Shown here: piece by piece, positions 22,224 through 64,000 of the stretch | How the letters are laid out: the number at the start of each line of letters is the position of its first letter | Numbering within the stretch: the stretch's first letter is position 1 | Source of the DNA: an uncultured delta proteobacterium | GTDB taxonomy: Bacteria; Desulfobacterota; Syntrophorhabdia; Syntrophorhabdales; WCHB1-27 | Direction: 5' to 3' | Assembly: GCA_963717985.1 (NCBI GenBank) | Contig: CAVQYC010000007.1 | Span: forward strand, 101,033 to 165,032 | Length of the DNA: 64,000 bases | The notes under the pieces: model-generated | Seen by the model: the letters and a program-made list of their open reading frames with translations, nothing else | Told to the model about the DNA's origin: nothing | The model's database searches: none | Position numbers and translations under genes: made by a program

Positions 22224-22252
22224 TTGACCATGGAACTGTCCGGTGATATAAC
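22224..22252 (+). promoter_or_regulatory. sigma70-type promoter of the riboswitch-cbiM operon
   Basis: TTGACC (22224-22229), 17-nt spacer, TATAAC (22247-22252), about 10 nt upstream of the riboswitch. Confidence 0.45.
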
Positions 22253-22259
22253 AAAAATA

Positions 22260-22430
22260 CTTCGGGTGCCAAAAGGCGTAATAGGGAATCCCGTGAGGAC
22301 CGCAAGGGGTCCAAGTCGGGAGCGGTCCCGCCGCTGTAACCGGGATGAAGGCCACCATAGCCACTGAACGTTGATTCGGGAAGGCTGGTGAGTAGGACGA
22401 ACCGGGAGCCAGAAGACCTGCCCGAGGGTC
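22260..22430 (+). promoter_or_regulatory. cobalamin (B12) riboswitch aptamer
   Basis: Conserved elements read directly: GGTGCC..AATAGGGAA..CCGTGAGG, GTCCCGCCGCTGTAA, GCCACTG, GGGAAGGC, and the B12 box GAGCCAGAAGACCTGCC. Lies upstream of cbiM. Confidence 0.85.
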
Positions 22431-22498
22431 GGTCCGCACTTCATTGGGGTGTGGACGTTTCCCGCGGAGGAAATTGAGGATGAAGTAAATCAGGGTGC

Positions 22499-26456: not shown

Positions 26457-26962
26457 AAGCTTTCTCCTTTTGATTTTGACTGACGCCGGAACATGAACTG
26501 CCTTTTGAGACTTCCTCACCTCCCTTTGTTTTCACGCTTAAAAGCGTGTTTTTGGCAGCCCGGCCGTCTGTCTGAAGTATTCACGAGTAGCGTATCCGAG
26601 ACCCGCTGGCTTTCCGTCCCACCCTTACGAGTGGTTTGGCTTTTTCAGATATTGCAACAGGTTACCAGAAGGCTGTTACACCCTTGTGAAAGATTTATGA
26701 AATATTCGTTAAGAAACTTCGAGTAGTAATCGTGAATATTGAGAACTTGTGGCTGACGCGCGCTTGCAGGCGCGCTTCGTTATTGGTGTCTTCCCGAATT
26801 CGTGCAACGGCTGATCCAGTCTGTGGGCCGAAGATTATGAGTGGCAATCGGGTGCCAGGCAATTCCTAATATTTCCGCCTTTGTTGGAAGAAGTGAAGAA
26901 CGTCCTCGTCGTCCTCTTCTAGTTTATATATAGCAGACTATATATAGCTATTAATAATTTAG

Positions 26963-59633: not shown

Positions 59634-59729
59634 GGAAGTGCCAAGGCGCCTGGTGGGCCTCCTGGTCTTCAAAACCAGTGCACCGGTGACGAGCTGGTGG
59701 GTGGGTTCGATTCCCATGCACTTCCGCCA
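59634..59729 (+). tRNA. selC: tRNA-Sec (anticodon UCA)
   Basis: 8-bp acceptor stem GGAAGTGC/GCACTTCC, discriminator G plus encoded CCA. Anticodon loop CTTCAAA. Long variable arm with a 6-bp stem (CACCGG/CTGGTG). 5-bp T stem with a TTCGATT loop, giving the 8/5 architecture of bacterial tRNA-Sec. Confidence 0.9.
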
Positions 59730-59746
59730 TTTTCCCTTTATTTTAC

Positions 59747-60964
59747 TTAGTTTTTGTCTTTCGAATCTCGTGCAGATTCGTGCAGACCCTTTCTCAGTTG
59801 CACGACCTTCTTTTCCAGGATGGCTTTTCTCGCCGAGGCCTCAACCTTCGCATACTTCTTCACGCTCTCCAATCTGGCCCAGTCTCCAGCTATTTGAACG
59901 TCATGGATGTTATACCCGTACTCGTTGATGAGCTGGGAAGCGGTGCTGTGCTTGAGGCCGGAATACATGTCTATTGTCTCGCCTACCTTAGCGCAGGCGG
60001 CTTTCCAGAGGTCATTCATGGTCTTGTGGGTATAGTGCTTGCCCTCCAGCTTCCCCCTGGGATGCACGAAGAAGTAGTGCGAGATTATCCCGTTTGTCTT
60101 TTGTTTCTGCTCCTCGATCGCGATGAACGGTTCGAAGTCGCTCACCATGGGCACCGCGTGAATCTCCCCTGTCTTGGTTCTGTCCATAGGTACTTTGGCG
60201 GAAAAGCCTCGATGCACGGTGAACATCTCGCTGCCGAAGTCTTCCTTGCGTAACGCCATCGCCTCCGCGGGCCTCCGGAGATGGTACTTCAACCACCAAA
60301 AGATAGGCTGGTGCTCGATCGGTATGGCTTCGATTACCCTCCGCTGTCGCTCTTCGGGCAGCCATTGAATGACCGATTGCACAATCTGATAGTCTTTCTC
60401 CTTAGGAAAAGCCGGCATGGCTGGAATACGACCGGACCGCCACGCGTGGTCTAGGCAGGTGTGCAGGCAGTACATTACGTTCTTCTTGCCCTTGCCTTCT
60501 CTCTTGATGTTCCCGAGGAGCTGCGTCAGCGTGTCAAGTCGGATCTCATGCAACTGGACGGTTTTCGTTCCGAAGAAAGGTACGAGATGTCTTTCGACGC
60601 TGTTCCTATAATCCTTATAGGTCGCAGGGGTCAGGGTATTTTTGATTGACTCCAGCCAGGTGCGGAGGTAGGAGATTACTTCGCAGTCCTGTATGGTGAA
60701 TTTCTCGATCCGGAATATCCCGTTACCGTAATCGCCGCGCATGACAGAGAGAAGCTGTTCCGCCATTTCGCGGCCCTGCTTCCCCTTATGCATGTAGAGG
60801 CCCTTGTATTTCCAGATCTTGTATGTTTTTCGGTCGGGCTCGTGGTACCAGGCTACATAGTAGCGCTTGACGTTCTTGGCAAACCCCACGCTGCCCTTTT
60901 CCATACAGATTCCCCCTGCCGTCTTGCTGAAGGAATTGTACAGAGCAAGGGGAAGGCGTGTCAA
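59747..60964 (-). CDS. tyrosine-type site-specific integrase
   Basis: N-terminal SAM-like domain and C-terminal catalytic domain (LRRPAEAMALRKEDF ... GLKHSTASQL ... AGDWARLESVKKY). Lies 18 nt from the 3' end of tRNA-Sec. Start is TTG 60964 (TTGA overlap) or ATG 60904. Confidence 0.85.
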   Translation of the reverse strand: MTRLPLALYNSFSKTAGGICMEKGSVGFAKNVKRYYVAWYHEPDRKTYKIWKYKGLYMHKGKQGREMAEQLLSVMRGDYGNGIFRIEKFTIQDCEVISYLRTWLESIKNTLTPATYKDYRNSVERHLVPFFGTKTVQLHEIRLDTLTQLLGNIKREGKGKKNVMYCLHTCLDHAWRSGRIPAMPAFPKEKDYQIVQSVIQWLPEERQRRVIEAIPIEHQPIFWWLKYHLRRPAEAMALRKEDFGSEMFTVHRGFSAKVPMDRTKTGEIHAVPMVSDFEPFIAIEEQKQKTNGIISHYFFVHPRGKLEGKHYTHKTMNDLWKAACAKVGETIDMYSGLKHSTASQLINEYGYNIHDVQIAGDWARLESVKKYAKVEASARKAILEKKVVQLRKGLHESARDSKDKN

Positions 60965-61347
60965 GCTATTCGCGCCTCATGCATTCTTTTGCCTTGAGAT
61001 TCTTCCTGTTCATCTTCTATCAATCGCCTAAAATCAATTCCCGACATCATTCCACGGCAACAGAATCGATTTTCCGAGGCTTTCCGCATTTTCGCCTTTG
61101 TCTCTTCGGACACCTTCCTTACCTTCACGGCGCCACCCTTCCGATATGGCATGAAAACATGAAACGCGCACCCTTCAACCTCGCAGTCCCTCCGACCATC
61201 CATGTAAAAGCCCGTGCACTCATAGCAATTGGCGAGAATGCTCTCCTTCATGGTGAGGCTCTCGCCCCTGAGGAAGGTTATCAGTTCCCGTTTTCCTCGC
61301 GCCGTGCTCCCGTGCTTCTTGATCCATTCGATACTTGCGGTCGTCAT
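60961..61347 (-). CDS. hypothetical Cys-rich protein (128 aa)
   Basis: Track ORF with a CYECTG...CEVEGC metal-binding-looking motif. Coupled to the integrase start. Confidence 0.45.
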   Translation of the reverse strand: MTTASIEWIKKHGSTARGKRELITFLRGESLTMKESILANCYECTGFYMDGRRDCEVEGCAFHVFMPYRKGGAVKVRKVSEETKAKMRKASENRFCCRGMMSGIDFRRLIEDEQEESQGKRMHEARIA

Positions 61348-61524: not shown

Positions 61525-61746
61525 TCACCCTCTCCCTCCGAAGTCCTGGTCATAGGCCCCTTGAAGCGAGACGTCCCGGCCTTGGGGCTTTTCAACCGAA
61601 AGCCCTTTCGTGAGACGATAGTGCTCCAGGGCCTCCCTGATGTAAAGTCCCCGGATGGACTTCGGCATGCCTTCGAGCAGTTCGTAGAGCTCCTTCTGCT
61701 TGGCCTTGTGGATGTGCACTCTGTAGACGACGAAATCCTCAGCCAT
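61525..61746 (-). CDS. ribbon-helix-helix-like protein, candidate ParR-type partition adaptor
   Basis: 73 aa. The beta-strand-then-two-helices pattern (FVVYRVHIHKAKQKELYELLEGMPKSIRGLYIREALEHY) is a secondary-structure guess from the residue pattern, not a computed prediction. Overlaps the 3' end of the ParM-like gene by 8 nt. Confidence 0.45.
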   Translation of the reverse strand: MAEDFVVYRVHIHKAKQKELYELLEGMPKSIRGLYIREALEHYRLTKGLSVEKPQGRDVSLQGAYDQDFGGRG

Positions 61747-62632
61747 CGTCGCCTCCTTGTTTTGCGTTCCTGCCGTAGCGCCAGTACCCTATCGCGTTCG
61801 CCATCACCGGCTCACTCACGATGAGTAGGCCGTGTCTGCTCGCAAAGTCCTTTATCATGGCGCCGCCCCCTCCGATGACGCCCAGGTCGGGATGAGCGGG
61901 AAGCTTCTCCAGATAATGGTCCACGAACGAGTCGATTTGATGCACATAGCCGTTGACCTTTTCCCGAACGTCGACCGGGCATGGGGTTCCCATGTAAGCG
62001 ATCTGCTTACCCCGAAGGATGTCCAGGGCGGTCCTGAAGCCGATGGAACGTCTGTACTCGCGCAAGAATGCATTGGCGATGTCGTCGAGCACGACAGATA
62101 CGCCGATCTTATGGGTCTCCGTGGCGCTTTCCACGTATTTCCCATCGGCGAAGAAGACCATGTCCAAGGTGTGGTGGCCGACGTCGATGACGGCGACGTT
62201 TTTCCGGAAGTCGTCAGGGTAGTTTTGGATGTGGCAAAAGAATATGCCCGCACCCTGGGGGATGATCCTGATATTTCCGCTGATCCGGCAGGGCTCTCCC
62301 TTTACCCTTATGTCCGACGTCCTTATGGCGTTGACGATCTTCCGGTTATAGTCCTTCGCGTACATTCCGGGAGGAATGCCCAGCACAACGTCGCCCCCTG
62401 AGAACTTGTTGAGCCAGAGGCAATGACCCAGGATCGCTAGCCAGGCGTCCGAAGCAACAAAGCTGGATCGACGGGTGTTGTAACTGCCGCCTTCCCTCTC
62501 CGCGTCTTTCCCGACCAGATACCTGCGGCCGTTGACTACGACGGGGATCATGTCTTCGAACGCGCCCTCTTTGGTCATCAGGGCGACGGCGGTGGGGAAT
62601 ATCTGCCTATCCTTTTCCGAGCACGTCTTCGT
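61739..62632 (-). CDS. ParM/StbA-like actin-fold segregation ATPase, 3' exon only (5' exon beyond the group II intron, outside the window)
   Basis: Motifs VVLGIPPGMY, IIPQGAGIF, AVIDVGHHTLDMV, VIGGGGAMI. The N-terminal phosphate-1 motif is missing. The ORF continues upstream only through intron domains V and VI. Confidence 0.6.
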   Translation of the reverse strand, partial: TKTCSEKDRQIFPTAVALMTKEGAFEDMIPVVVNGRRYLVGKDAEREGGSYNTRRSSFVASDAWLAILGHCLWLNKFSGGDVVLGIPPGMYAKDYNRKIVNAIRTSDIRVKGEPCRISGNIRIIPQGAGIFFCHIQNYPDDFRKNVAVIDVGHHTLDMVFFADGKYVESATETHKIGVSVVLDDIANAFLREYRRSIGFRTALDILRGKQIAYMGTPCPVDVREKVNGYVHQIDSFVDHYLEKLPAHPDLGVIGGGGAMIKDFASRHGLLIVSEPVMANAIGYWRYGRNAKQGGDDG

Positions 62633-62673
62633 GTCGGGTAGCCAGGCGGCGTTACCACCGCCCGGCCCCCTAA

Positions 62674-62707
62674 GAACCGTACGTGAAGGTTTCCCCTCAT
62701 ACGGCTC
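62674..62707 (-). ncRNA. group II intron domain V
   Basis: The minus strand reads GAGCCGTATGAGGGGAAACCTTCACGTACGGTTC: AGC triad, 2-nt bulge, GAAA tetraloop. Confidence 0.9.
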
Positions 62708-62750
62708 AAGCCTATCAAAGCCGCAGCCCTTCAACCTGCGACCGGCCTTG

Positions 62751-64000
62751 CTACAGATTTCCATCGGCTTTCCATCGGCTGTCTGCCTGTCTGTGACATG
62801 TGGTGTGCATCAGGACCAGGCGGGGAGTGTCGGGTTCATCTCCGCCAACCGCTCTTTCCGCCAGGCGGTATACCCGGTAGTTGTCTCCGAGCATCTGTTG
62901 GCAGATAGGACACTTTCCTCCCTGCTTCTTGAGCATCCGCAATTCCACGTCGTGTCCCTTTACTCCATGAAGGAGCTTGGATAGGTTCCTCTGTTCGAAA
63001 TACCATTCCCATTTGTGATCGAAGGGATTCGCTTCCGCCCTGATTCTCACGTGACGGACGATCTTGGTACGATTCACTGCATATAGTCTGTATATCACCA
63101 TCCGCCCCTTCACCCTCTCCGATGCGGCAAACACCCAGCTTCTCGTTCCTTCCTTACGGAAGTATCTACGGGCGGTCCATCTTCCGCCTTTATCCGGATG
63201 TCTGCGCCGTGCCCATCGCCACAGTCTCTGCCAAATCGCGTGTCCCACTTTACTGAACGTCTCCGACGACACCGCATGCCTGTGATAGTTCGCCCACCCC
63301 CGCAATACCGGGTTGAGCATTATGATAAGGTTGGCTTGCTTCGCCGTCTTGTTGGCTCCTATGATATTCCGTACCTTTCGCAGGAATGCCTTGACGTTAT
63401 CCTTGCTTGGCCTGATGAGGAGCTTGCCTTTAAACTTCCTCACATTCCACCCAAGGAAATCGAATCCTTCATCCACGTGCGTGATCCTGGTCTTTTCTTC
63501 GGATAGTTCCAGGCCCCTGGCCTTGAGAAACTCCCTGACCAATGGTTTGACCTGGTTTTCCAGGAGCTCTTTCGATTCTCCCGTTATCACGAAGTCGTCC
63601 GCGTATCTGACATAGTTGACCTTAAAGGAGTGCTCCACTCTCTTTCCTCCCACCGTGGTTCTTTGTTTCCGGAAGGTTTCCTTTAAGAGTATTTGCAGTC
63701 CGTCCAGGGCCATATTTGCCAGCGCTGGCGAAATAATCCCCCCTTGAGGGGTCCCGGAACTCGTCGGGTTGAAAGACCCCAGTTCCATGAAACCTGCCTT
63801 CAGCCACTTCCTGAGCATCGACTTGTCCATAGGGATGTTGTCTAACAGCCAGGAGTGACTGAGATTATCGAAACAGCCCTTGATGTCCCCTTCTAAAATC
63901 CATTGCGCGGATGCGGGTCCGCTGAGCTGGTGAAAACAACCTTCCATTGCGTCCGCAGTACTCCTCGCTGTTCGGAACCCGTAGGAGTGTCTATCCGCCG
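62751..64000 (-). CDS. group II intron-encoded reverse transcriptase/maturase with HNH endonuclease domain (N-terminus truncated by window edge)
   Basis: RT motifs YGFRTARSTADA (read by hand to the window edge), GTPQGGIISPALANM, YVRYADDFVI. Maturase X domain. C-terminal CPICQQ...HTTCH HNH/zinc motif. Confidence 0.9.
   Translation of the reverse strand, partial: ADRHSYGFRTARSTADAMEGCFHQLSGPASAQWILEGDIKGCFDNLSHSWLLDNIPMDKSMLRKWLKAGFMELGSFNPTSSGTPQGGIISPALANMALDGLQILLKETFRKQRTTVGGKRVEHSFKVNYVRYADDFVITGESKELLENQVKPLVREFLKARGLELSEEKTRITHVDEGFDFLGWNVRKFKGKLLIRPSKDNVKAFLRKVRNIIGANKTAKQANLIIMLNPVLRGWANYHRHAVSSETFSKVGHAIWQRLWRWARRRHPDKGGRWTARRYFRKEGTRSWVFAASERVKGRMVIYRLYAVNRTKIVRHVRIRAEANPFDHKWEWYFEQRNLSKLLHGVKGHDVELRMLKKQGGKCPICQQMLGDNYRVYRLAERAVGGDEPDTPRLVLMHTTCHRQADSRWKADGNL

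What the first reader, a model, noticed from the sequence alone, without database searches (positions are those of the whole stretch)
61739..64000. Group II intron interrupts the parM-like gene right after its phosphate-1 motif; the predicted 3' splice site falls exactly on a codon boundary
**Intron elements, read on the minus strand.**
- The RT/maturase/HNH ORF stops at 62751.
- 43 nt later lies a textbook domain V (GAGCCGTATGAGGGGAAACCTTCACGTACGGTTC, 62707-62674).
- Then comes a domain VI hairpin (GGGGGCCGGGCGG-UGGUAACG-CCGCCUGGCU-A-CCC) with a bulged A at 62639.
- The intron would end ...GAC at 62633.

**The host gene.**
- The following sequence, ACG AAG ACG TGC..., translates as TKTCSEKDRQIFPTAVA... 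It continues into a ParM/StbA-like protein with all later actin-fold motifs (VVLGIPPGMY, IIPQGAGIF, IDVGHHTLD, GGGGAMI).
- That protein has no N-terminal D.G.G..K phosphate-1 motif.
- The 341-aa track ORF therefore looks like a chimera of intron RNA domains plus exon 2. The 5' exon should lie upstream of the intron, outside the window.

**Why it matters.** Bacterial group II introns usually avoid essential coding sequence. An intron inside the segregation ATPase of a mobile element would make partition dependent on splicing.
Basis: partly seen in the sequence, partly recalled or inferred. Interest (0 to 1): 0.55.

Follow-up and report, generated by a model that had tools for sequence, protein, structure and literature searches.

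The report
Group II intron splitting a parM gene
A mobile self-splicing (group II) intron has recently inserted, in frame, into the ATP-binding motif of the actin-like partition gene parM of a chromosomally integrated mobile element, so intact ParM can only be made after RNA splicing; this is a clean new example of a known kind of event, not a new mechanism.

Summary

**Intron.** Rfam places domains V and VI at 62709-62633 (-), covering the whole model, with the bulged A at 62639. Upstream lies an RT/maturase ORF that runs off the window.

**Host gene.** The sequence from 62632 down encodes ParM residues 15-311. Other metagenome contigs carry the same element without the intron. L017 is 2963/2964 identical, and the homology starts exactly at 62633/62632. 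The empty site is ...GGATACGGCTTC|ACGAAGACG, so exon 1 is 14 codons (MAVDCIGIDIGYGF) and the intron is in phase 0. It sits inside the D-x-G-x-G-x-x-K phosphate-1 signature, not after it.

**Other copies.** A second contig (L010) has the same junction in a parM only 61% identical in protein. A related full-length intron (74% IEP identity) sits in motif VI of an SNF2 helicase gene and shows IIB1-type EBS/IBS pairings.

**Corrections.**
- The HNH domain has lost its catalytic His and Asn.
- The element is integrated next to tRNA-Sec.
- Exon 1 and the intron 5' end lie about 1.06 kb beyond the window. I could not retrieve them.

**Verdict.** This is a new member of a known kind. The closest functional analogue is Ll.LtrB in the ltrB relaxase gene. 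Interest is moderate.

The parts
62633..64000 (-). 3' portion (1368 nt) of a group II intron of the IIB1 / chloroplast-like-1 type. It continues beyond the window. By analogy with 2418-2422-nt relatives, the 5' splice site is predicted near 65,060.
   Evidence: Rfam RF00029. Pfam RVT_1 and GIIM. Homology with intron-less alleles stops at 62633. The relative P0063 matches the 6ME0 T.el4h maturase at E 5e-193.
62751..64000 (-). Intron-encoded protein ORF (RT with YADD, X/maturase, degenerate En domain). The N-terminal ~147 codons lie outside the window.
   Evidence: TIGR04416 scores 270 bits over profile positions 95-353. dN/dS against L008/L009 is about 0.2.
62787..62912 (-). HNH-like En region. 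CPIC...CHRQ is kept, but relatives' HVHH...NL reads YRVYRL...PRL here, so the catalytic His and Asn are replaced.
   Evidence: Alignment A2. No PF01844 hit at E<=0.01. The same degeneration is seen in P0073.
62758..62779 (-). 11-nt tandem duplication (GCCGATGGAAA x2) at the 3' end of the IEP ORF. It replaces the conserved C-terminal ...SVARPVAG with ADGNL.
   Evidence: Comparison with L007.
62674..62707 (-). Domain V (34 nt, GAGCCGUAUGAGGGGAAACCUUCACGUACGGUUC).
62636..62670 (-). Domain VI hairpin with the bulged branch-point A at 62639. The 3'-terminal GAC is 62635-62633.
61739..62632 (-). parM exon 2: codons 15-311 plus stop of an actin-like ParM/ALP partition ATPase. It begins T15-K16.
   Evidence: Identical to residues 15-311 of the uninterrupted L017 ParM. 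ALP_N. Family profile against pCBH ParM 6IXW, E 5e-27. phrog_691 partition protein, E 8e-30.
61739..62764 (-). The 341-aa ORF on the track. It is not a gene but a read-through of the IEP 3' end, domain IV remainder, domain V and domain VI into exon 2.
   Evidence: P0005 is an equivalent chimera in L010.
61525..61746 (-). 73-aa ORF overlapping the parM stop by 8 nt. It is a candidate ParR-type adaptor.
   Evidence: Weak match to ParR PRK13916, E 4e-5, below the curated cut-off. The identical protein follows uninterrupted parM in 9 other contigs.
59747..60964 (-). Tyrosine integrase of the element that carries parM.
   Evidence: Pfam Phage_integrase and SAM-like domain. phrog_1.
59634..59725 (+). 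tRNA-Sec gene. Its 3' end abuts the integrase, so it is the presumed integration site.
   Evidence: Rfam RF01852, 71 bits. Same arrangement in L004, L005 and L014.

Best explanation
A mobile group II intron of the IIB1 / chloroplast-like-1 type has retrohomed, in the sense orientation, into the parM-like actin-fold ATPase gene of an integrase-bearing element. That element sits at tRNA-Sec in a Syntrophorhabdales-like chromosome.

**Shown.**
- The intron 3' end is at 62633.
- The insertion point is between codons 14 (TTC, Phe) and 15 (ACG, Thr), in phase 0. This is inside the phosphate-1 signature GIDIGYGF|TK.
- The insertion is recent. Alleles differing by one base in 2964 lack it.
- The same site is occupied in a second, divergent parM.

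**Inferred.**
- The rest of the intron (about 1.06 kb) and the 42-nt exon 1 follow directly beyond the window.
- Transcription from the parM promoter gives a pre-mRNA from which the intron-encoded RT/maturase helps the ribozyme splice. The bulged A at 62639 attacks the 5' splice site and the exons are ligated to ...GGCUUC|ACGAAG.
- Only spliced mRNA encodes ParM with an intact nucleotide-binding loop.
- Unspliced RNA, or the 341-aa chimeric ORF, yields protein without Asp9, Gly11 and Gly13, and so presumably inactive protein.
- By analogy with Ll.LtrB, the intron probably lowers ParM output rather than abolishing it.
- The cost is small while the element is integrated.
- The IEP's endonuclease residues are lost. 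Further mobility would therefore have to use endonuclease-independent priming, or is impaired.
For: - **Intron RNA.** Rfam domain V/VI hit over the full model, 68 bits. Fold z-score -6.4 with the bulged A 7 nt from the end.
- **IEP.** RVT_1, GIIM and YADD, with the frame open for 415 codons. dN/dS is about 0.2 against relatives at 72-76% identity.
- **Empty sites.** L016, L017 and L019 are 99.9% or more identical from window 62633 onward. L017 is 2963/2964 identical. Their sequence is ATGGCGGTTGATTGCATAGGAATCGATATCGGATACGGCTTC|ACGAAGACGTGC.
- **Joined product.** L017 ParM residues 15-311 equal the window's exon 2 product. ALP_N coverage is 1-148 for the whole protein against 9-148 for exon 2 alone.
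- **ParM identity.** pCBH ParM at E 5e-27 over the full length. phrog_691 partition protein.
- **Second occupied site.** L010 has the same junction in a parM 61% aa / 71% nt identical, while the intron tail is 108/113 identical. The nearest relatives of both occupied alleles are uninterrupted.
- **Clade behaviour.** The related intron in L025-L028 is complete (GUGCGAC...CCCGAC, 2422 nt), in phase 0 inside an SNF2 helicase ORF. Joining its exons restores Helicase_C across the junction. It shows EBS1/IBS1, EBS2/IBS2 and EBS2a/IBS2a pairings as described for IIB1 introns (PMC8643678). Its IBS1 (GGCTAC) differs from the parM site (GGCTTC) at one position, and both have +1 = A.
- **Functional analogue.** Ll.LtrB reduces expression of its host relaxase gene (PMC6003770).
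Against: - The intron 5' half, the 5' splice site and exon 1 of this locus were never seen. The window ends inside the IEP, and the contig is absent from all searchable collections.
- The closest other copy (L007/L024, 92% nt identity) is a 5'-truncated, frameshifted relic at an unrelated site. Dead copies of this lineage therefore exist. dN/dS between it and the window copy is about 1.
- The IEP has lost the HNH catalytic residues and its conserved C-terminal tail.
- There is no expression or splicing data.
- No parC-like repeats were found, and the ParR match is weak. A partition function for this ParM is inferred from homology only.
Confidence: 0.8

Rival explanations
1. The intron copy is defective (5'-truncated, rearranged, or splicing-dead). 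In that case parM in this genome is simply an insertionally inactivated pseudogene, tolerated because the element is integrated.
For: - A sister copy (L007/L024) is 5'-truncated at the equivalent of window ~63893. It carries a frameshift and a 12-aa deletion of invariant residues.
- dN/dS between that copy and the window copy is about 1.
- The window IEP has lost the En catalytic residues and has an 11-nt duplication at its 3' end.
- The 5' part of the intron is unseen.
Against: - The IEP frame is open and collinear with functional-looking relatives for all 415 visible codons, past the truncation point of L024.
- The RT motif YADD and the X domain are intact.
- Domains V and VI are canonical.
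- The dN/dS of about 1 can be explained entirely by decay of the L024 copy.
- Exon 2 is still identical to the functional allele, although the recency of the insertion would explain that too.
Confidence: 0.15
2. The junction is an assembly artefact. A multi-copy intron caused a chimeric join between an intron copy located elsewhere and a parM locus.
For: - Contigs L007, L024 and L010 all break inside this intron, as expected for a repeat in short-read assemblies.
- The 5' junction has not been seen in any contig.
Against: - The join falls exactly at the intron's structural 3' end and exactly where a IIB1 intron would sit.
- An independent assembly from a different sample (L010) has the same junction in a different parM allele.
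- A chimeric join would have no reason to fall exactly at the intron's structural 3' end and on a codon boundary in two separate assemblies.
Confidence: 0.03
3. The intron is an old, vertically inherited resident of this parM family that has been precisely lost many times. It is not a recent, repeated homing event.
For: Two divergent parM alleles carry it at the identical position.
Against: - Alleles 99.97%, 98.5%, 93% and 86-91% identical to the window allele all lack it.
- The nearest relatives of the L010 allele (87% identity and below) lack it too.
- The intron tails are 96% identical while the exons are 71% identical.
Confidence: 0.02

Closest known systems
Ll.LtrB group II intron in the ltrB relaxase gene of the Lactococcus lactis conjugative plasmid pRS01
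   Same: A mobile group II intron sits in the sense orientation inside a protein-coding gene needed for the propagation of a mobile element. Host-gene function then requires splicing, and the intron lowers host-gene expression (PMC6003770).
   Different: - Ll.LtrB is a IIA intron with a different IEP lineage. The LtrA structure 5G2X matches the relative P0063 only at E 1e-36, against 5e-193 for the IIB1 maturase.
- Its host gene is a relaxase, not a partition ATPase.
- Its splicing and effects are shown by experiment. Here they are inferred.
Bacterial IIB1 introns with chloroplast-like-1 RTs: T.el4h (= Th.e.I3, PDB 6ME0/6MEC) and EcI5
   Same: - The IEP family is the same. The relative P0063 aligns end to end with the 6ME0 maturase, E 5e-193.
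- Domain V is 34 nt and domain VI has a bulged A.
- The full-length relative in L025 starts GUGCGAC, matches Rfam RF02012 in domain I, and has an EBS2a-A-EBS2 arrangement as described in PMC8643678.
   Different: - IEP identity to enterobacterial plasmid introns is only about 55%.
- The window copy has substituted the HNH catalytic residues.
- The host (Syntrophorhabdales) and the target (parM) are new.
- The class-defining 5' domains of the window copy were not seen.
ParMRC (type II) plasmid partition systems, closest solved member pCBH ParM of Clostridium botulinum (6IXW, 6IZR)
   Same: - Full-length profile match at E 5e-27, including the N-terminal IAIDLGYGQIK / IGIDIGYGFTK phosphate-1 loop.
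- A small ORF directly downstream matches ParR weakly.
   Different: - The gene is on an element integrated at tRNA-Sec rather than on a plasmid.
- No parC repeats were found.
- All NCBIfam matches are far below their curated cut-offs.
Sister intron (IEP 74% identical) in an SNF2-family helicase gene of another mobile element in the same kind of bacteria (L025-L028)
   Same: - Same intron clade.
- Phase-0 insertion inside a conserved NTPase motif (helicase motif VI, ...YFYQTGY|NVFSLRQAARRSWRIGQ).
- IBS1 GGCTAC against GGCTTC at the parM site, and +1 = A in both.
   Different: - Different host gene, IBS2 and EBS2.
- It is seen complete, with both junctions, in four contigs. The parM intron is seen only from its 3' side.

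Membership tests
Group II intron (ribozyme plus IEP) | Domain V: ~34-nt hairpin with the catalytic triad and a 2-nt bulge | tested here: met
   RF00029 full-model match at 68.1 bits, E 2.9e-11, 62709-62633. The hairpin is recovered in the MFE fold.
Group II intron (ribozyme plus IEP) | Domain VI with a bulged branch-point A 7-8 nt from the 3' splice site | tested here: met
   Single bulged A at 62639, 7 nt from the end.
Group II intron (ribozyme plus IEP) | Intron-encoded RT with a maturase (X) domain in domain IV | tested here: met
   RVT_1 E 1.2e-29, GIIM E 2.5e-26 and YADD present. TIGR04416 scores 270 bits, against a cut-off of 300, on the truncated ORF.
Group II intron (ribozyme plus IEP) | 5' end GUGYG and domains I-III | not testable with these tools
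   They lie beyond the window end, and the contig is not in any collection. They are present in the relatives L008 and L025 (GTGCGAC; RF02012 at 124 and 115 bits).
Group II intron (ribozyme plus IEP) | Precise insertion relative to an intron-less homing site | tested here: met
   The 3' boundary coincides with the start of homology to 99.9%-identical empty alleles. The 5' boundary was not seen.
Subgroup IIB1 / chloroplast-like-1 lineage | IEP of the CL1 lineage | tested here: met
   The relative P0063 (76% identical to the window IEP) matches the T.el4h maturase 6ME0 at E 5e-193 over its full length. T.el4h is IIB1/CL1 according to PMC8643678.
Subgroup IIB1 / chloroplast-like-1 lineage | EBS1/IBS1, EBS2/IBS2, EBS2a/IBS2a and EBS3/IBS3 pairings with the flanking exons | not testable with these tools
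   The EBS sites of the window copy are outside the window. In the relative L025, TATTTGG pairs with A|CCAAA (-14..-9) and GTAGTC pairs with GGCTAC.
Subgroup IIB1 / chloroplast-like-1 lineage | Functional HNH endonuclease domain (present in many members, but not in all) | tested here: not met
   HVHH...NL of relatives reads YRVYRL...PRL here. There is no PF01844 hit. This is not a defining feature of the family. It bears on mobility, not on membership.
ParM/ALP actin-like partition ATPase | Actin-fold motifs over the full length, including phosphate-1 D-x-G-x-G-x-x-K | tested here: met
   Met for the joined or empty-site product: ALP_N 1-148/148, invariant D9, G11, G13 and K16, pCBH ParM E 5e-27. 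Exon 2 alone lacks D9, G11 and G13.
ParM/ALP actin-like partition ATPase | Partner ParR adaptor encoded next to parM | tested here: inconclusive
   The 73-aa ORF matches ParR PRK13916 at E 4e-5, 23.5 bits against a cut-off of 140. It has no Pfam or PHROG hit.
ParM/ALP actin-like partition ATPase | parC centromere repeats | tested here: inconclusive
   No iterated repeats were found in the short intergenic regions examined. The search was not exhaustive.

The most novel reading that the evidence does not exclude
This intron clade may be specialised to home into the DNA that encodes invariant NTPase motifs of mobile-element maintenance genes. The two examples are the ParM phosphate-1 loop here and SNF2 helicase motif VI in the sister intron. 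Such targets are kept constant by protein-level selection and travel between hosts.

On this reading the endonuclease-dead parM copy spreads only when the element replicates or transfers as an episome. It would also act as a splicing-dependent throttle on partition, linking the element's episomal stability to intron RNP activity.
Probability: 0.25. Interest if true: 0.55.

Novelty: new member of a known kind. Interest (0 to 1): 0.4.

Why it matters
Bacterial group II introns are rarely found inside protein-coding genes (PMC6003770). Well-defined natural cases with both occupied and empty alleles are useful.

**What this case offers.**
- A near-isogenic pair: occupied and empty alleles differ by one base in 2964 outside the intron.
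- A second independent occupancy of the same site in a divergent allele.
- A sister intron in another NTPase motif.

Together these form a natural system for asking how IIB1 introns choose coding targets on mobile elements, and what they cost the carrier element.

**For annotation.** The 341-aa 'gene' is an artefact, and parM should be annotated as a split gene.

This does not reveal a new mechanism.

Tried and rejected
**1. Attempts to retrieve the window's own contig, to see exon 1.** All failed or found only intron-less alleles.
- Exact look-up of the 341-aa ORF.
- 3'-junction pattern, then a 50-nt domain V/VI pattern, in the metagenome collection.
- Domain V pattern in viral contigs.
- IEP searches, full and N-terminal. 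No full-length IEP above 76% identity was found.
- Look-up of the downstream 73-aa ORF. It returned nine contigs, all intron-less.

**2. ParM hits that might hide more interrupted loci.** The truncated-looking hits P0021 and P0038, the long hit P0035, and the members of the P0001 cluster were checked. All are uninterrupted, frameshifted or cut by a contig end.

**3. L007/L024 as a source of the intron's 5' half.** Rejected: that copy is 5'-truncated and decayed.

**4. The element's far boundary.** I searched for a second copy of the tRNA-Sec 3' end and found none in the loci held. The element's size and type remain undefined. TraG_N genes upstream of parM in L011 hint at a conjugative element.

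**5. parC-like repeats.** None found.

**6. Literature.** No paper in the library combines a group II intron with an interrupted partition gene. The C. perfringens plasmid paper has its intron in the tcp region, not in parM.

**7. Exon 1 elsewhere in the window.** It has no copy there at up to 3 mismatches.
Full report
**The observation.**
On the minus strand, the last 1368 bases of the window (64000-62633) are the 3' part of a group II intron.
- An ORF that is open from the window edge for 415 codons carries Pfam RVT_1 (E 1.2e-29) and the group II maturase domain GIIM (E 2.5e-26). Its stop codon ends at 62751.
- Rfam's domain V/VI model (RF00029) matches 62709-62633 over all 77 model positions, at 68.1 bits and E 2.9e-11.
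- Folding 62750-62633 gives domain V (62707-62674) and a domain VI hairpin with one bulged A at 62639, 7 nt from the end. The z-score is -6.4 against shuffles.

**The host gene.**
From 62632 down to 61739 the same strand encodes 297 residues plus a stop. These match Pfam ALP_N only from profile position 9 of 148.
- Sixty-two homologous protein clusters were found, typically 305-306 aa. They begin MA[VI]DCIGIDIGYG[FY]TKTC..., about 14 residues more than the window's product.
- A profile of this family aligns end to end with the solved pCBH ParM (6IXW, E 5e-27), including its IAIDLGYGQIK phosphate-1 loop.
- The family matches PHROG 691 'partition protein' (E 8e-30).
- The 73-aa ORF that overlaps the parM stop matches ParR weakly (E 4e-5, below the cut-off).

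**The empty site.**
Looking up that 73-aa protein returned nine contigs, and all carry an uninterrupted parM.
- L017 differs from window 62632-59669 by one indel in 2964 positions. L016 and L019 are 99.9% identical.
- In every case the homology starts at window 62633/62632, which is exactly the end of the Rfam model.
- The empty site reads ATGGCGGTTGATTGCATAGGAATCGATATCGGATACGGCTTC|ACGAAGACGTGCTCGG.
- Exon 1 is therefore 14 codons (MAVDCIGIDIGYGF) behind a GGAGGA ribosome-binding site, and the intron is in phase 0.
- L017 ParM residues 15-311 are identical to the window's exon 2 product.
- The complete protein matches ALP_N over 1-148/148 at 67 bits, against 46 bits for exon 2 alone.
- The invariant residues of the family include D9, G11, G13 and K16. 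The intron therefore splits the phosphate-1 signature rather than following it.
- The 341-aa ORF on the track is a read-through of intron RNA domains into exon 2.

**What could not be shown.**
Exon 1 and the intron 5' half lie beyond the window.
- The source contig is in none of the collections.
- Exon 1 has no copy elsewhere in the window.
- Full-length relatives are 2418 and 2422 nt long. On that basis the 5' splice site should lie near position 65,060.

**Relatives of the intron.**
- **L010.** This 1093-bp contig from another sample has the same junction (...CUACCCGAC|ACCAAGACG) in a parM only 61% aa / 71% nt identical. Its intron tail is 108/113 identical to the window's.
- **Independent occupancy.** The closest relatives of both occupied alleles are uninterrupted. 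Two separate invasions of one conserved site is the economical reading.
- **L007/L024.** This is the most similar copy elsewhere (92% nt identity). It is a 5'-truncated, frameshifted relic at an unrelated site. dN/dS between it and the window copy is about 1.
- **Selection on the IEP.** Against relatives at 72-76% identity, dN/dS for the window IEP is about 0.2.
- **L025-L028.** An intron whose IEP is 74% identical is seen complete in four contigs.
  - It reads GUGCGAC...CCCGAC and matches Rfam RF02012 in domain I.
  - It sits in phase 0 inside an SNF2-family helicase gene, at ...YFYQTGY|NVFSLRQAARRSWRIGQ.
  - Joining its exons restores Pfam Helicase_C across the junction.
  - In it, the motif U-A-UUUGG pairs with A|CCAAA at -14..-9, and a loop GUAGUC pairs with GGCUAC at -6..-1.
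  - This is the EBS2a/EBS2/EBS1 layout described for IIB1 introns (PMC8643678).
- **Comparison with the parM site.** The parM site has IBS1 GGCTTC, one change from the sister intron's GGCTAC. Both have A at +1.

**Class.**
The relative P0063 aligns over its whole length with the T.el4h maturase (6ME0, E 5e-193). T.el4h is a IIB1 intron with a chloroplast-like-1 RT (PMC8643678). Plasmid-borne enterobacterial relatives are about 55% identical.

**State of the IEP.**
- The RT motif (YADD) and the X domain are intact.
- In the C-terminal En region the zinc ligands remain (CPIC...CHRQ). The catalytic HVHH...NL of relatives reads YRVYRL...PRL, and no HNH Pfam hit is obtained.
- An 11-nt tandem duplication (62779-62758) replaces the conserved last eight residues.
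- Maturase function is therefore plausible. Endonuclease-dependent mobility is doubtful.

**Context.**
- A tyrosine integrase (59747-60964, -) abuts the 3' end of tRNA-Sec (59634-59725, +).
- Arginyl-tRNA synthetase and signal peptidase lie on the other side of the tRNA.
- The same arrangement of tRNA-Sec, integrase, parR-like ORF and parM occurs in Syntrophorhabdus aromaticivorans UI and in several MAGs.
- The element is therefore integrated in the chromosome here. I did not find its far boundary.
- While it is integrated, loss or reduction of ParM should cost little. This fits the usual residence of bacterial group II introns in mobile DNA (PMC6003770).

**Mechanism.**
- *Shown:* a precise, sense-oriented, phase-0 insertion into the phosphate-1 coding sequence; canonical domains V and VI; a conserved RT/maturase.
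- *Inferred:* the parM transcript contains the intron. The IEP assists lariat formation at A62639. Exon ligation restores GYGF-TK, and only spliced mRNA gives active ParM. By analogy with Ll.LtrB, expression is probably reduced.
- *Main rival (about 0.15):* this copy is truncated or splicing-dead and parM is a pseudogene. Assembly chimerism and ancient vertical inheritance are unlikely for the reasons above.

**Verdict.**
This is a new member of a known kind: a mobile group II intron inside a gene of a mobile element. Three features add value: the near-isogenic empty alleles, the recurrent occupancy of the same site, and the sister intron in another NTPase motif. Interest is 0.4.

Noticed in passing
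L025:9381-11802 (also L026, L027, L028): A complete 2422-nt sister intron (IEP 74% identical) interrupts an SNF2-family helicase gene in phase 0, just before helicase motif VI. The gene is on a mobile element carrying RadC, DUF3768, DUF6094 and ParB_N genes. Joining the exons restores Helicase_C across the junction, and the EBS1/EBS2/EBS2a pairings are readable.
   Followed up: yes
window 62787-62912 (-): The IEP's HNH endonuclease region keeps its Cys/His ligands but has Tyr-Arg in place of the catalytic His-His and Arg in place of the Asn. The closest relatives (68-76% identical) mostly lack a PF01844 hit too, so this sub-lineage seems to be losing its endonuclease.
   Followed up: partly
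window 62758-62779 (-): An 11-nt tandem duplication (GCCGATGGAAA x2) shifts the frame of the last IEP codons. It replaces the conserved C-terminal SVARPVAG with ADGNL.
   Followed up: partly
window 59634-60964: tRNA-Sec lies directly next to a tyrosine integrase, with housekeeping genes (ArgRS, signal peptidase) on the other side. This marks a family of elements integrated at tRNA-Sec that is shared with Syntrophorhabdus aromaticivorans UI (L004). No att repeat or far boundary was found.
   Followed up: partly
L024:1-1241 and L007:1-1020: A 5'-truncated, frameshifted relic of the same intron lineage (92% nt identity) lies at an unrelated chromosomal site next to an MntP-like gene. Contigs from two assemblies break inside it.
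   Followed up: yes
L009:2497-7797: A related intron appears to be split in domain I by the insertion of a two-gene transposable element (rve transposase plus AAA_22 ATPase, IS21-like). Rfam RF02012 hits lie on both sides of the insertion.
   Followed up: no
L010:1-53: In the second parM-resident intron, the sequence upstream of the shared 113-nt tail matches neither the window nor L007. The IEP C-terminus differs there, or the copy is rearranged or ORF-less. The contig is too short to tell.
   Followed up: partly
window 61079 (within ORF 60961-61347, -): The only difference from L017 in 2964 bases is a 1-nt indel. It changes the length of the Cys-rich ORF between the parR-like gene and the integrase (128 aa here, 99 aa in L017). 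Which version is correct is unknown.
   Followed up: no
window 62617-62621 (-), codons 18-19 of parM: The window, L016, L017 and L019 lack one Arg codon (TKTC-SEKDRQ) that is present in L014 and most other alleles (TKTCRSEKDRQ). This is an allele difference and is not related to the intron.
   Followed up: yes
window 22247-22439 (+) and 26550-26649 (-): A cobalamin riboswitch (109 bits) and a c-di-GMP-I-GGC riboswitch (69 bits) were found in the whole-window Rfam scan.
   Followed up: no
L017:1515-2744 (the equivalent lies beyond the window end): The element also carries a 409-aa HD-domain protein with weak similarity to the Cas3 HD nuclease domain (E 4e-8, below the cut-off). Several ORFs have no family match.
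   Followed up: no
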